Shown here piece after piece: positions 18,994 through 24,225 of a stretch of 60,709 nt of DNA. Origin of the DNA: Planctomycetota bacterium (GTDB lineage Bacteria > Planctomycetota > SZUA-567 > H5-PLA8); the NCBI GenBank assembly GCA_045863855.1, contig BTVV01000029.1, positions 1 through 60,709 of the forward strand, given 5' to 3'. Within the stretch, counting starts at the first letter, position 1. Each line of letters begins with the position of its first letter. Made by a program: the position numbers and the translations under genes. Under the pieces are notes generated by a model that saw nothing but the letters and a program-made list of their open reading frames with translations, did not search any database and was not told the origin of the DNA.

Positions 18994-21129
18994 TTAGCGG
19001 CGGCCGCCTTCCTTTTCGCCGTCGCCGACGATTTCCTTGTACTTGCTGCGCGGCACGGGCTCGTAGCCGAACGGCTCCATGCTGTAGCTCGCGCGCCCGC
19101 TGGACAAGCTGCGGCAGGCGTTGGAGTAGCTGAACATTTCGGCCAGCGGACACTTGGCGCGGACGACCTTGAGGTGGCCGCGGTCGCCCAGTTCGGTGAT
19201 CACCGCGCGGCGGCTCTGCAAGTCGCCGATGATGCTGCCCATGTATTCCTCGGGCGTGACGACTTCGACGTTCATGATCGGCTCGAGCAGGATCGCGCCG
19301 GCTTTGCGCGCGGCTTCCTTGTAGCCGATGCTGCCGGCCATTTCGAAGGCGAGATCCGAGCTGTCCACTTCGTGGTATTTGCCGTCGAGCAGCGTGATCT
19401 TGATGTTGATGGTCGGGTAACCGCCGATGATGCCGGTGAAGGCCGCGCCACGCGCGCCGCGTTCGACGGACGGGATGAATTCGCGGGGAATCGAACCGCC
19501 GACGATCTCGGACTCGAAGAGCACGCGATCGGGCTCGTCGTTCGGGAACGGTTCGAGCTTTAGGTAACAGACGCCGTACTGGCCGCGGCCGCCCGACTGC
19601 TGCACGAACTTGCCTTCGGCCTCGGCTTCGGCGGTGAGCGTCTCGCGGTAACTGACGCGCGGCGAACCGACGTTGGCGTCGACGCCGTGCTCGCGCATCA
19701 GCTTCGACTTGATGATTTCCAGGTGCAGTTCGCCCATGCCCGAAATGATGAGCTGGCCGGTCTCGTTGTTGAACTTATGCGTGAACGTCGGATCTTCCTT
19801 GGCCAGCTTGGACAGGCCGATGGCCAGCTTGTCCTTGTCGCTGTTCGTCTTGGGCTCGATAGCCATCGAGATGACGGTGTCGGGGAACTTGGGCGGTTCC
19901 AAAAGGACCGGCTTGTCTTCGCTGCAGATCGTGTCGCCGGTGTAGGTGTACTTGAGCCCGCCGGCGGCGACGATGTCGCCCGCCACGGCCTTATCGAGCG
20001 GCTCGCGTGCGTCGGCATGCATCAGGAAGAGCCGGTCCACGCGCTCTTTCTTGTCCTGCGTCGCGTTGAAGAGCTTGTCGCCCTTGTTCAGCGTGCCGGA
20101 GTAAATGCGCAGGAAAGTCAGGTCGCCGAATTTGTCGTAGATGGTCTTGAAGGCCAGCGCGGTGAGCGGCTGGTCGGGGTAGGGCTTGCGTTCGATTTCC
20201 TTCGAATGGTCTTCCGGATCGAGTCCGATCGTGGGCTTGGCTTCCAGCGGAGAGGGCAGGTACGCCACCACGGCGTCGAGCAGGCGCTGCACGCCGATGT
20301 AGTGGTAGGCGCTGCCGCAGAGGACCGGGACGGCCTTGCCGGAGCAGACGACGCGACGCAACGCGGCCGCGAGCTGGTCGTTGTCGGGTTTCTCGTCGGC
20401 GAGGAACATCTCGCCCATCTTCTCGTCGTCGTCGGCCAGGAGCGTGAAGAGTTCGTCGCGGCGCATGTTGGCCTCTTCGAGGAACTCGGGCGCGACGTCC
20501 ATCTCCTCGACCTTCTGGCCCTTGGAATCCTTGTCGAAGACGAACTGGCGCATCTGGACGAGGTTGATCACGCCGGTAAAGCTGTGCTCCTTGCCGATGG
20601 GCATTTGGATGGGCAGGGCCTTGCCGCCCAGGCGCGTCTTGATCTGCTCGACGACATTCCACATGTCCGCGCCGACGCGGTCCATCTTGTTGATGAAGCA
20701 CAGCCGCGGGACGTTGTAGCGGTCGGCCTGGCGCCAGACGGTTTCGGACTGCGCTTCGACGCCGTCCACGCCGCTGAAGACGACGACCGCGCCGTCGAGC
20801 ACGCGCAGCGAACGCTGCACCTCGGCCGTGAAGTCGATGTGGCCGGGCGTGTCGATGATGTTGATGTTGTAGCCCTTCCAGTGGCAGCTCACCGCGGCCG
20901 ACGTGATCGTGATGCCGCGCGCGCGCTCTTCGGGCATGTAGTCGGTGGTCGTGGTCCCTTCGTGGACCTCGCCCATCTTGTGCTGCTTGCCCGTGTAGTA
21001 CAGGACGCGCTCGGTCAGCGTCGTCTTGCCCGCGTCGATGTGCGCGATGATGCCGATGTTGCGCAGCAGCATGATCGCCTGCTCGGCCTTCGAAAGCTCG
21101 GGCGCCGAAGTCGTCTGGGGGGCCGCCAT
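18994..21129 (-). CDS. fusA: Elongation factor G
   Basis: [53 protein letters not shown]; lies downstream of rpsG. Confidence 0.97.
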
Positions 21130-21425
21130 GGTTAACGTGCTCCTGTTGCGAGTGCCTGAATCCCGGGATCGACACCGATGCGGCGCATTTCGTGACCTTC
21201 CCCGCGGGCGTTCACGAACATGCCCACGGGCGCCCTGGCGAACCGGCCAGGGGCCGTTGCCCGCTGCCTCTCGTCCTCGACTCGGGATACGGCTGCCGCT
21301 CGTGCGGTGACCTAGATCCGGGAATGGGATGCGTGAAGGAAGGGGCTGACGAGGAAACTTATGCGCTCATCGTAGGTTCCAAACCTCCCACGCCGGACGG
21401 TCCCGGTGCCGTCCAAGCAAGGCCA
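21130..21425 (-). promoter_or_regulatory. Candidate structured 5' leader of fusA with a 3-codon upstream ORF
   Basis: Several hairpins; long-range pairing of 21323-21315 with 21170-21161; GGAGG at 21388-21384 precedes ATG AGC GCA TAA (21370-21359). Confidence 0.5.
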
Positions 21426-21428
21426 AAA

Positions 21429-21456
21429 AATATACCGACGCCTAACTTAAAGGCAA
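21429..21456 (-). promoter_or_regulatory. Putative sigma70 promoter for fusA
   Basis: Minus strand TTGCCT-16 nt-TATATT just downstream of the rpsG terminator. Confidence 0.55.
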
Positions 21457-21481
21457 CCCTAATCTTGCCGCGGCGGAACTC

Positions 21482-21510
21482 AAAAAAAACGCCCTCGCAG
21501 GGCGAGGGCG
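21482..21510 (-). terminator. Intrinsic terminator between rpsG and fusA
   Basis: Minus strand CGCCCTCGC-CCT-GCGAGGGCG-TTTTTTTT. Confidence 0.85.
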
Positions 21511-22476: not shown

Positions 22477-22862
22477 GTATTGCTTCCAGGAAAAAAGGCT
22501 CCCACGTCCCGCACCGGGACGCTCGTAAGGCCACCGACGCGTTAGACGCTGCACCGGTGAAGGGGCATTTCATACCTCAATCGGCAACCAGTTCAAGTCT
22601 ATATTGCAAGGCGTTCCGCCGCTGTTGCACAGGTGGGTGAAACAGAAGCGAAAGAAGATGCTGGCCATGGCATCGCCATTGCCGATGAGTAGATACGCAG
22701 AGCGTTCCGCTTGGCGTTTAAGCGGAAGGGTTGCACTATGCGTCGTTGCACGGCGCAGGTGTGCTACTTGCGGAGCGAACTGCGGCAGTATAGCGTTGCC
22801 GTTTGTGACAAAGCATGCACATAGTGTAATGTGTCTGCGGCAAACGGCGAGGGGTTGAATTC

Positions 22863-23228
22863 GTGAACGATCCGAAACCGCGTCCTGGCTCTGGGCGATC
22901 CGCGAATCGTAGGCACTTGTGCCGGTTCGTGGATGGCCGGATGGAAGTGCAGGGCGTCATCTTGCGCATGGACCTGGGACTGTTCTGCCGGACGATGGAT
23001 GAAATGGCTACCTGTCCGCAAAAGCGGGTGGTCTTCGATTTCACCCGCTGCCCGTATCTCAGTTCCCTGTTCATCGGCCATCTGGTGGATGGCGTGATAC
23101 GCGCCCGCGAGAGCGGTAAGGACGTCGAGATTCTGCTGAGTCCCGAGCTGGGTAAGTTCTTCGACGGGGCGCAGCTTTTCCACCTGCTGACGTATCAGGT
23201 GGTCGACGCGCCGGGTGCGCCTGCGTAA
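22863..23228 (+). CDS. STAS-domain protein (anti-sigma-factor antagonist-like)
   Basis: VVFDFTRCPYLSSLFIGHL; GAGGGG upstream of the GTG start. Confidence 0.65.
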   Translation: MNDPKPRPGSGRSANRRHLCRFVDGRMEVQGVILRMDLGLFCRTMDEMATCPQKRVVFDFTRCPYLSSLFIGHLVDGVIRARESGKDVEILLSPELGKFFDGAQLFHLLTYQVVDAPGAPA

Positions 23229-23265
23229 GCGGTGCGATACGGGCGCAGGCGAACGGGGGCGGGCG

Positions 23266-24225
23266 TTGAACGAACCGGCCAAGGCGCTCCGGCCTTCCGA
23301 ATCGTCCGCGGCGCTGGCCGCGGTGCTGGCCCGTACGCTGCCGCGCCTGGCGCAGTTGGCGGGATCTCGTGAAGTGCCCGTGCCGACGGCGGATGCTCAA
23401 GCGCTGGGCGAACAGCTCGATACGCTTCTCGCGCGCTGCGAACGCCGCTACATGATCGTTCCCGATGCCGGCCCTGTCACCGCCACCGGCCGCTTCGAGG
23501 GCTTGAAGGCGCGTTTCCTGCGCAGCGTTTCCCATGAATTGCGCACGCCGCTGGCCTCCATCGAAGGCTTCGCGATGGCGCTTTTGCGCGACGTCGAGGG
23601 CGGGGCGGGCGAGATGCCGGCCGAGATGCGCCAGCGCTTCATCGAGATCATTTACAAAGAGTCGCGCCGGCTCAGCGAGCTGATCGAGGACGTGCTGGAT
23701 CTGAACGAGATCGAAGAAAATCCGCTCAACGAGGACCGGCAGGCGCTTCCGGCGGAGGCGCTTTTTGCCGCGGTGCGAGCGACCTTCGGAAAACGCCACG
23801 GCACGGAAGCCGCCCAGCACATCCAGGTGGTGCTGCGTCCCGCCGCGCCGGGGCCGCAGGTGTTCGCCAACGAAGAAGCACTGAAGGATATCCTGCGGCA
23901 TCTGCTGGACAACGCGGCGAAGTTCGGAGGCGGAAAGCCGATCGAACTGGGTGCGGAGGCGTTGCCCGGAAGCGGCGCCGCTCCGCAGACGCGGTTGTGG
24001 GTGCGCGACCAAGGTCCGGGCATTCCGGCGCAGGAACACGTCCGCATCTTCAACAAGTTTTACCGCCTCGACAGCGACGTCCACACGCTGCCCGGCACCG
24101 GGCTGGGTCTGGCGATCGTCAAGACACTGGCCGAACAGAACGACGGCCGCGTGCGCGTCGAATCGAGCCCCGGGCAGGGCGCCACGTTCAGCCTCGAATT
24201 TCCCAGCGGACCACCGGTCAAGTAA
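23266..24225 (+). CDS. Soluble histidine kinase (HisKA + HATPase_c) with no recognisable sensor domain
   Basis: VSHELRTPL, LLDNAAKF, VRDQGPGIP, IFNKFYR, GTGLGLAIVK; start uncertain (23215 or TTG 23266). Confidence 0.9.
   Translation: MNEPAKALRPSESSAALAAVLARTLPRLAQLAGSREVPVPTADAQALGEQLDTLLARCERRYMIVPDAGPVTATGRFEGLKARFLRSVSHELRTPLASIEGFAMALLRDVEGGAGEMPAEMRQRFIEIIYKESRRLSELIEDVLDLNEIEENPLNEDRQALPAEALFAAVRATFGKRHGTEAAQHIQVVLRPAAPGPQVFANEEALKDILRHLLDNAAKFGGGKPIELGAEALPGSGAAPQTRLWVRDQGPGIPAQEHVRIFNKFYRLDSDVHTLPGTGLGLAIVKTLAEQNDGRVRVESSPGQGATFSLEFPSGPPVK

What the first reader, a model, noticed from the sequence alone, without database searches (positions are those of the whole stretch)
21130..21510. 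fusA has its own promoter and a ~290-nt structured leader with a Met-Ser-Ala mini-ORF: candidate sensor of EF-G activity
Seen, 5' to 3' on the minus strand: a terminator right after rpsG (21482-21510); a TTGCCT-16-TATATT promoter (21456-21429); a GGACGG/CCGTCC hairpin; GGAGG (21388-21384) followed 13 nt later by ATG AGC GCA TAA (21370-21359); a pyrimidine tract (CCTTCACGC) able to pair back on the SD region GCGTGGGAGG; and a ~165-nt domain closed by TCCCGGATC/GATCCCGGGA with nested CACCG/CGGTG and GCGGC/GCCGC stems and two internal hairpins, ending shortly before the fusA AGGAG. Known: fusA is usually co-transcribed with rpsL-rpsG, and EF-G does both translocation and, with RRF, ribosome recycling. 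Inference: how long a ribosome stays on a 3-codon ORF depends on EF-G/RRF, so it could switch leader folding and autoregulate EF-G. I do not recognise the structure as a known RNA family.
Basis: partly seen in the sequence, partly recalled or inferred. Interest (0 to 1): 0.78.

Follow-up and report, generated by a model that had tools for sequence, protein, structure and literature searches.

The report
Three-codon leader switch before EF-G gene
In one family of uncultured Planctomycetota bacteria, the gene for the protein-synthesis factor EF-G is preceded by a conserved three-codon mini-gene and a co-evolving RNA helix, which probably lets the cell adjust EF-G output to how long a ribosome lingers on the mini-gene.

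Summary
An SD-led ORF of exactly three codons lies in 19 of 35 distinct fusA leaders of this Planctomycetota family (1.1 expected by shuffling). Outside the family it is at chance level. The peptide and the stop codon vary. The SD spacer is unusually long (11-14 nt). A C/U-rich tract just after the stop co-evolves with a GAAGG block 70-130 nt downstream (helix P1, own versus swapped partner p=0.00005). A conserved hairpin and a pause-like sequence follow. The unit travels with fusA, not rpsG. The anti-SD pairing is undecided. The own promoter is found in only part of the family. Best reading (inferred, about 45%): a ribosome-dwell timer. Fast EF-G-driven translocation and recycling clears the mini-ORF, Rho loads on the C-rich tract and terminates at the pause. 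A lingering ribosome holds Rho off until P1 closes, and fusA is transcribed. It works like the tufB, corA and tnaC attenuators and the vmlR and fusB leaders, but matches no Rfam family. I found no EF-G autoregulation of this kind in the papers searched.

The parts
21482..21510 (-). Intrinsic terminator after rpsG (9-bp stem, T8)
   Evidence: a terminator precedes the leader in only 6 of 26 family leaders; RNA-library contigs of two runs cross it
21429..21456 (-). Sigma-70-type promoter TTGCCT-16-TATATT; start site inferred near 21423
   Evidence: a TTG..TA...T site with its -10 end 57-63 nt before the mini-ORF ATG in 7 of 26 leaders, 9 of 26 at any distance; not mapped
21395..21414 (-). 5' hairpin GGACGG/CCGTCC
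   Evidence: hairpins of other sequence seen by eye at the same place in L034, L035, L038, L164; not tested statistically
21384..21388 (-). Shine-Dalgarno GGAGG of the mini-ORF, 13-nt spacer
   Evidence: 14 of 23 ORF-bearing leaders have a perfect GGAGG, all 11-14 nt before the start; genome-wide about 69% of GGAGG-led starts have 5-9 nt and 17% have 11 or more
21359..21370 (-). Three-codon mini-ORF, Met-Ser-Ala-stop
   Evidence: 19 of 35 leaders vs 1.1 expected; peptides vary; stops TAA 13, TAG 7, TGA 3
21331..21358 (-). C/U-rich tract (candidate Rho loading site; holds the 5' strand of helix P1 at 21346-21335)
   Evidence: C/G = 2.96 over nt 13-40 in 21 leaders; most pyrimidine-rich tract among the 28 GGAGG-ATG-two codons-stop sites of the genome
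21278..21330 (-). Variable arm enclosed by P1 (the GAAGG block starts 67-133 nt after the ATG across leaders)
21258..21277 (-). Conserved GGACGA(G)AGG block, 3' strand of helix P1 (21272-21258)
   Evidence: own vs swapped partner -3.48 kcal/mol after centring, p=0.00005, n=21; one leader per clade, n=15, median p=0.0005
21229..21255 (-). G+C-rich hairpin directly after P1 (candidate pause hairpin)
   Evidence: 36-nt window 20 nt after the block start has z<-1.5 in 16 of 21 leaders; windows away from it (offsets -60 to 0 and +30 to +90) 0-6 of 21
21213..21224 (-). Pause-like sequence G-11 G-10 ... U-1 G+1, U-rich in most relatives; predicted RNA 3' end at 21214
   Evidence: G-10 Y-1 R+1 in 14 of 21 vs 8.3 shuffled, p=0.008; best score 7.02 vs 5.92 in local shuffles, 0 of 1000 as high
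21140..21144 (-). fusA Shine-Dalgarno AGGAG
18994..21129 (-). fusA, the only canonical EF-G gene found in this assembly
   Evidence: TIGR00484 886 bits vs cut-off 659; next paralogue 31% identical; assembly 94% complete

Best explanation
A ribosome-operated transcription attenuator that matches EF-G supply to EF-G demand, most likely through Rho. Shown by conservation: the SD-led short ORF, the long spacer, the C-rich tract, helix P1, the hairpin and pause-like sequence, and attachment to fusA. Inferred steps: (1) A ribosome loads on the nascent leader, makes two translocations slowed by the long SD spacer, terminates and waits for RRF and EF-G to split it. (2) With enough EF-G it leaves before the GAAGG block is transcribed; Rho loads on the exposed C-rich tract and arm and releases RNA polymerase at the hairpin pause. 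(3) With too little EF-G activity the ribosome lingers at the upstream edge of the tract and keeps Rho off until P1 closes over it; polymerase leaves the pause and transcribes fusA. P1 acts as a latch and the variable arm sets the time window. I put about 0.85 on the broader claim that this is a uORF-operated cis control of fusA, and about 0.45 on this specific mechanism.
For: Three-codon ORF in 19 of 35 leaders vs 1.1 expected; 1 of 46 and 1 of 33 outside the family, at chance level; present in all three main branches of the family's EF-G tree. No residue and no stop type is conserved and no ORF contains Pro at codon 2 or 3, which argues against amino-acid, EF-P, RF1 or RF2 sensing. The leader stays with fusA where rpsG lies elsewhere (L035; L180 and L183). 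P1 co-evolves. Its 5' edge lies 18-25 nt from the A of the start codon (median 21); the mRNA channel holds 11 nt after the first P-site base (PMC7282821, passages), so a ribosome at a three-codon stop abuts P1. In L173/L194 the start codon is lost and P1, the hairpin and the U-run look decayed with it (by eye). C/G is about 3 in the tract; rho is found in 17 of 17 family genomes. Spacers beyond 6 nt slow translocation 5-10 fold in vitro (bioRxiv 10.1101/2020.04.16.045807, abstract and passages). Recycling takes a larger share of time on short ORFs (PMC4838388, abstract and passages). EF-Tu autoregulates tufB through Rho and ribosome speed (table row in PMC12360218).
Against: No expression, termination or ribosome data: the RNA contigs show cover only, and two runs cross the upstream terminator. 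C-richness of the tract is also explained by its pairing with a G-rich strand; the arm beyond it has C/G 1.16; the tract alone (about 28 nt) is shorter than the 60-90 nt given as optimal for Rho. Modelled ribosome cover changes P1 little in most three-codon leaders (10.9 to 8.4 pairs) but removes it in 5-6-codon ones (9.7 to 1.5), so P1's state at the stop differs between variants. RNAalifold found no consensus on the MAFFT alignment. 12 of 35 leaders lack an intact element at the homologous place, and L222 appears to keep hairpin and pause without an SD-led ORF. rho is also present in the genomes that lack the element.
Confidence: 0.45

Rival explanations
1. vmlR-type three-helix switch with factor-assisted intrinsic termination (closest to the first reader's idea). 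Without a ribosome the SD pairs with the tract, P1 cannot form, and the hairpin extends to the U-run as a weak NusA/NusG-dependent terminator. A lingering ribosome frees the tract and P1 antiterminates.
For: P1's 5' strand is nearly always CCUUC-like, as an anti-SD would be. The early fold pairs the SD region with the tract in 15 of 21 leaders. P1 rises from 8.3 to 10.9 pairs when the SD is covered. U content after the hairpin is 3.9 vs 1.75 expected in 9 nt. Some leaders (L183, L047, L045, L038) have extended stems that reach a U-rich stretch. Weak terminators helped by NusA/NusG are described in PMC9226507 (passages).
Against: No co-evolution of a terminator lower stem: p=0.42, 0.35, 0.76, 0.96. 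This window's site has no U-run, although the genome makes canonical terminators nearby. SD-tract pairing is no better than other windows of the same leader.
Confidence: 0.22
2. Same architecture but a general sensor of translation stress (antibiotics, any slow step), with EF-G simply the gene that is raised.
For: Every step from initiation to splitting lengthens dwell time. The vmlR leader responds to antibiotics and to ribosome assembly defects (PMC9226507); the fusB leader responds to fusidic acid.
Against: The model and motif scans found the element only before fusA. Variable codons and stops and a long SD spacer bias it towards the EF-G-dependent steps.
Confidence: 0.15
3. P1 and its junction form a protein-binding site (uS7, EF-G or another protein) that controls fusA; the mini-ORF only keeps the RNA folded or protected.
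For: The GGACGAAGG block and the preceding UYAAG are more conserved than pairing alone needs. uS7 represses the E. coli str operon (PMC10931766, passages). L222 seems to keep structure without the ORF.
Against: No Rfam match. The site is not between rpsL and rpsG and is kept when fusA leaves rpsG. The ORF length is tightly conserved.
Confidence: 0.1
4. Translational or stability control: ribosome occupancy of the mini-ORF sets the folding or the decay of the full leader and so fusA initiation, without premature termination.
For: In this window a long outer domain can close 16 nt before the fusA SD. fusB is regulated by translational attenuation.
Against: The outer domain is not conserved. The region between the pause and the fusA start varies in length and sequence and shows no folding signal (z near 0).
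Confidence: 0.08

Closest known systems
Salmonella tufB autoregulation (EF-Tu, Rho-dependent; Brandis et al. 2016, seen only as a table row and reference in PMC12360218)
   Same: An elongation-factor gene controlled by ribosome speed on its own mRNA, proposed here to act by masking or exposing a Rho site
   Different: tufB is listed as 'uORF-like'; here there is a separate three-codon ORF, a long SD spacer and a long-range helix, and the factor is EF-G
Rho-dependent uORF attenuators corA/corL, mgtA/mgtL, tnaC, speFL (PMC12360218, PMC5314796; passages)
   Same: uORF, C-rich tract after it, a helix able to sequester the tract, hairpin plus consensus pause, no intrinsic terminator
   Different: No conserved peptide or effector-specific codon; the ORF is three codons; Rho dependence is not shown here
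Bacillus vmlR leader with uORF MIN (PMC9226507; passages)
   Same: Three-codon uORF, pause hairpin, alternative pairing near the uORF
   Different: vmlR has a true intrinsic terminator and controls an antibiotic-protection ABCF; here no conserved terminator, variable peptide, target is EF-G
Staphylococcus fusB leader (as described in PMC4838388; passages)
   Same: Short ORF proposed to report blocked EF-G function, partly at the recycling step
   Different: 20-codon peptide, translational attenuation, a resistance gene responding to a drug; here the target is EF-G itself
E. coli uS7 control of the str operon (PMC10931766); predicted Streptococcus rpsG-fusA attenuator (PMC2965389); Pelagibacter rpsL motif (PMC2704228); passages only
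   Same: Cis control inside the str operon that reaches fusA
   Different: uS7 binds between rpsL and rpsG; the passages read for the Streptococcus and Pelagibacter elements mention no uORF; I did not align their sequences with this leader

Membership tests
Rfam RNA families | Covariance-model match at gathering score | tested here: not met
   0 hits in the window and in 20 relatives' loci; best local match 16 bits vs cut-off 50
Rho-dependent uORF attenuators (corL, mgtL, tnaC, tufB type) | Conserved SD-led uORF upstream of the gene | tested here: met
Rho-dependent uORF attenuators (corL, mgtL, tnaC, tufB type) | C>G tract next to the uORF that a helix can sequester | tested here: met
   C/G 2.96 in nt 13-40 and co-evolving P1; the tract is short and the arm is only 1.16
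Rho-dependent uORF attenuators (corL, mgtL, tnaC, tufB type) | Pause site downstream and rho in the genome | tested here: met
   sequence signature only; rho 17 of 17
Rho-dependent uORF attenuators (corL, mgtL, tnaC, tufB type) | Premature termination that depends on Rho | not testable with these tools
   RNA runs are contigs only
Arrest-peptide attenuators (tnaC, speFL) | Conserved peptide sequence | tested here: not met
   23 peptides share only Met
vmlR-type antibiotic attenuators | Three-codon uORF | tested here: met
   18 of 23 ORFs at the homologous place have three codons
vmlR-type antibiotic attenuators | Anti-antiterminator overlapping the uORF or its SD | tested here: inconclusive
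   p=0.83 for co-evolution (low power); early fold pairs in 15 of 21
vmlR-type antibiotic attenuators | Conserved intrinsic terminator exclusive with the antiterminator | tested here: not met
   no U-run in this window
Amino-acid leader-peptide attenuators (trp, his) | Control codons for one amino acid | tested here: not met
uS7-binding str-operon leader | Located between rpsL and rpsG | tested here: not met
   lies after rpsG and follows fusA
uS7-binding str-operon leader | Binds uS7 | not testable with these tools
   needs a binding assay
fusB-type translational attenuator | Conserved helix that hides the downstream gene's SD | tested here: not met
   no conserved folding signal near the fusA start; outer domain not conserved

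The most novel reading that the evidence does not exclude
EF-G regulates its own gene through a minimal-ORF timer: a long-spaced SD and a three-codon ORF make the ribosome's stay depend mainly on EF-G-driven translocation and RRF/EF-G recycling, and a long-range helix records whether the stay outlasted transcription of the arm. This would be a natural in-vivo reporter of ribosome recycling rate, an autoregulatory loop I did not find described for EF-G. Unchecked earlier notes of this scan on a six-codon uORF before fusA in Solirubrobacterales would make it a repeated invention.
Probability: 0.4. Interest if true: 0.87.

Novelty: new variant of a known kind. Interest (0 to 1): 0.72.

Why it matters
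Autoregulation through ribosome behaviour is known for EF-Tu (tufB) and, from my own recall, for IF3 and RF2. For EF-G the control I found in print is indirect, through uS7. A peptide-independent three-codon sensor in front of fusA would fill that gap and show how cells measure translocation or recycling capacity. It would also give a portable reporter for ribosome recycling, a step that is hard to follow in vivo. It is a new structured leader in a lineage with no cultured model in the records seen.

Tried and rejected
Folding z-scores of the single leader: not better than shuffles. An unanchored best-duplex search against composition-shuffled tracts: 1 of 23 leaders at p<0.05 for P1 and 2 of 23 for SD pairing, so no signal with that test. 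RNAalifold on the 22-sequence MAFFT alignment: no pairs; I then used own-versus-swapped partner tests. A helix between the stop-proximal bases and the stretch after the hairpin looked good by eye in L037, L164 and L180 and appears in this window's fold. It was tested four ways (p=0.43, 0.027, 0.53, 0.78; one per clade 0.22) and is not accepted. Terminator extension of the hairpin, and pairing of the GAAGG block with the hairpin's 5' strand: null. Likeness of GGACGAGAGG to the sarcin-ricin loop (recalled, from no call): lost in G002, G001 and the family consensus, rejected. A second ORF from the ATG inside AAAATGGACGAAGG: no SD, and absent or in another register in several leaders, rejected. 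tRNA or tmRNA remnant: 0 in 16 loci. Repeat element: single copy. Second sites elsewhere: the sequence-only model R1 gave strong hits at 8 fusA leaders (7 training sequences plus G002), missed 8 family leaders, and gave weak hits at E of 1e-4 or worse; of the 7 inspected, all lie within long open reading frames and none precedes a fusA. RNA runs: 4 of 23 listed runs were laid; contig depth cannot rank genes, and the stretch without cover (22506-22667) proves nothing. Paper searches for an EF-G or fusA uORF or autoregulation found no description of this element. The library lacks most subscription papers, and I opened no supplements; motif tables of comparative-genomics screens could hold it.

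Full report
1. Observation. The genes are rpsL, rpsG and fusA. fusA is followed by its own terminator-like site and a convergent regulator gene, not tufA. The leader does not fold better than shuffles (z=+0.12 and -0.70), matches no Rfam family and is single-copy. The four closest named records read 'Planctomycetota bacterium'.

2. The sample. I took the fusA upstream regions of all 17 genomes of the family and scanned metagenomes with an EF-G pattern, which gave 61 loci. I kept the 25 with at least 72% identity to this EF-G, dropped 4 with spacers of 150 nt or less (L190, L198, L202, L220; L202 looks like a family member without a leader), and removed 3 duplicates. That left 35 distinct leaders. 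The 36 loci below 72% were viewed but not counted.

3. The mini-ORF is conserved. An SD-led ORF of exactly three codons occurs in 19 of 35 leaders against 1.1 expected, and one of 2-6 codons in 26 against 4.8. The spacer window was chosen after seeing the first sequences; widened to 4-15 nt, the count is 20 against 1.5. Two of the 19 are doubtful (a TTG relic in L039, an out-of-frame GTG in L041) and one hand-picked case with a weak SD (L183) was missed. At the homologous place I count 18 three-codon and 5 five- or six-codon ORFs, 23 of 35. Outside the family the rate is chance: 1 of 46 tested among 60 phylum regions, and 1 of 33 among 34 class regions; these are samples, taken from the best-scoring matches. 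On the EF-G tree the three-codon form is in all three main branches, the longer forms lie in one of them, and the element is missing in L046, L222 and most of one subclade. Kin are not independent, so the counts overstate, but the spread over branches does not depend on that. Peptides share only Met, and all three stops are used. The leader follows fusA: in G007 rpsG is followed by another gene on another contig while fusA keeps promoter, ORF and motif; L180 and L183 show no rpsG in 900 nt upstream.

4. The SD spacer is long. All 14 ORF-bearing leaders with a perfect GGAGG have 11-14 nt before the start; a rough genome-wide estimate gives 69% at 5-9 nt and 17% at 11 or more. In vitro such spacers slow EF-G-driven translocation 5-10 fold and keep the SD paired up to 21 nt (bioRxiv 10.1101/2020.04.16.045807; abstract and passages).

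5. The conserved structure is not the one first proposed. In 21 leaders the tract (nt 15-38 from the ATG) pairs better with its own GAAGG block than with swapped ones: -16.9 against -13.3 kcal/mol, -3.48 after centring, p=0.00005. Eight other segment pairs were null. With one leader per clade the median p is 0.0005. Sequence changes on both sides are visible, for example GCACUUC/GAAGUGC in L180 and CCAUCU/AGAUGG in L036. A cruder unanchored test and RNAalifold on a MAFFT alignment did not detect the helix. A strong hairpin follows P1 in 16 of 21 leaders, then a U-enriched stretch that fits the pause consensus G-10 Y-1 G+1 (consensus and the 11-13 nt hairpin distance from passages of PMC10268239). 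No terminator stem, no stop-proximal helix and no SD-tract helix co-evolve; the last test is weak because both strands are near-constant. The outer 165-nt domain has a broken pair in G002 and no counterpart in G001. The promoter is positionally conserved in 7 of 26 leaders and present in 9; in four leaders the ORF starts 17-29 nt after the rpsG stop.

6. Geometry. P1 begins 18-25 nt from the A of the start codon in both short and long variants. In folding with a covered 5' end it is intact up to nt 21, half lost at nt 27 and largely gone by nt 30-33. A ribosome at a three-codon stop therefore abuts P1, and one at a six-codon stop melts it. In this window's leader P1 fell from 11.9 to 0.3 pairs when the SD region was allowed to re-pair behind the ribosome, but it survived when that region was excluded, so single-sequence models are fragile. 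A mechanism that works for both ORF lengths is one in which any ribosome occupancy protects the tract and P1 closes afterwards.

7. Mechanism. I favour the Rho timer given in Best explanation. It accounts for the C-rich tract, the latch helix, the pause without a U-tract terminator, rho in 17 of 17 genomes and tolerance of 3-6 codons. It gives negative feedback whichever EF-G step is limiting. The genome has one canonical EF-G, and the motif was found only before fusA. The direction of control, the role of Rho and the identity of the signal are inferred, not shown. RNA-library contigs of 4 of 4 runs laid cover the leader, carrying the alleles of G002; two cross the rpsG terminator, which means read-through or DNA, and contigs cannot show starts, ends or levels.

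8. Comparison. It works like the Rho-dependent uORF attenuators and tufB (PMC12360218, passages; PMC5314796, passages) and resembles vmlR (PMC9226507, passages) and fusB (PMC4838388, abstract and passages). It fails the defining tests for arrest-peptide, amino-acid, vmlR-type and uS7 leaders. A predicted Streptococcus rpsG-fusA attenuator (PMC2965389, passages) and the Pelagibacter rpsL motif (PMC2704228, passages) are the nearest by position. PMC8632094 has no mention of fusA or EF-G in its main text. Six searches found no description of this element or of EF-G autoregulation by a uORF; subscription papers and supplements were not seen. Two earlier notes of this scan report a six-codon uORF and terminator before fusA in Solirubrobacterales; I did not test them and do not count them as support.

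9. Verdict. A real, family-wide, apparently undescribed uORF leader on the EF-G gene, with strong comparative support for its anatomy and a plausible but untested mechanism. New variant of a known kind; interest 0.72.

Noticed in passing
L156, L157, L160, L161, L287 (family f4, within about 110 nt upstream of the fusA start): A different short motif, CAGAAG - hairpin - AAGYCCUUCUG, closes just before the fusA SD. A loose pattern hits 6 of 34 class regions outside the family (one, L154, looks like chance) and 0 of 60 other phylum regions; no Rfam match in L156 or L160. Possibly a second fusA leader without a mini-ORF.
   Followed up: partly
L090, L094, L099, L103, L107, L111, L112, L117, L125, L126 (rpsG-tufA spacers, mostly Treponema-labelled records): Spacers of about 600 nt share several conserved blocks, one just before the tuf SD; no Rfam match in L103, L107 or L111. 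Candidate structured RNA or leader.
   Followed up: partly
L186, L193, L197 (upstream of fusA, 62-65% identical EF-G): Three metagenome loci share a long conserved leader of about 300 nt with several hairpins, unrelated by eye to the one studied.
   Followed up: no
window 21073-21129 (-): EF-G of this family has a low-complexity N-terminal extension of about 19 residues before the TIGR00484 match; similar extensions are seen in relatives.
   Followed up: no
L173, L194 (mini-ORF position): The start codon reads AAG and the helix, hairpin and U-run look decayed relative to the close relative L164: a natural loss-of-function pair.
   Followed up: partly
L039, L042, L045, L171, L215, L219 (rpsG-fusA spacers): Short tandem and palindromic repeats have entered these spacers; in L039 only a TTG-led three-codon relic remains.
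   Followed up: no
L049 = G005:C10:85660-89154: G005 has a second EF-G (69% identical over the N-terminal part) whose upstream region does not show the leader by eye.
   Followed up: no
window 22863-24225: rpsL is preceded not by rpoC but by a 121-aa gene with no NCBIfam match and a divergent sensor-kinase-like gene, and tufA does not follow fusA: the str operon is cut out of its usual context.
   Followed up: no
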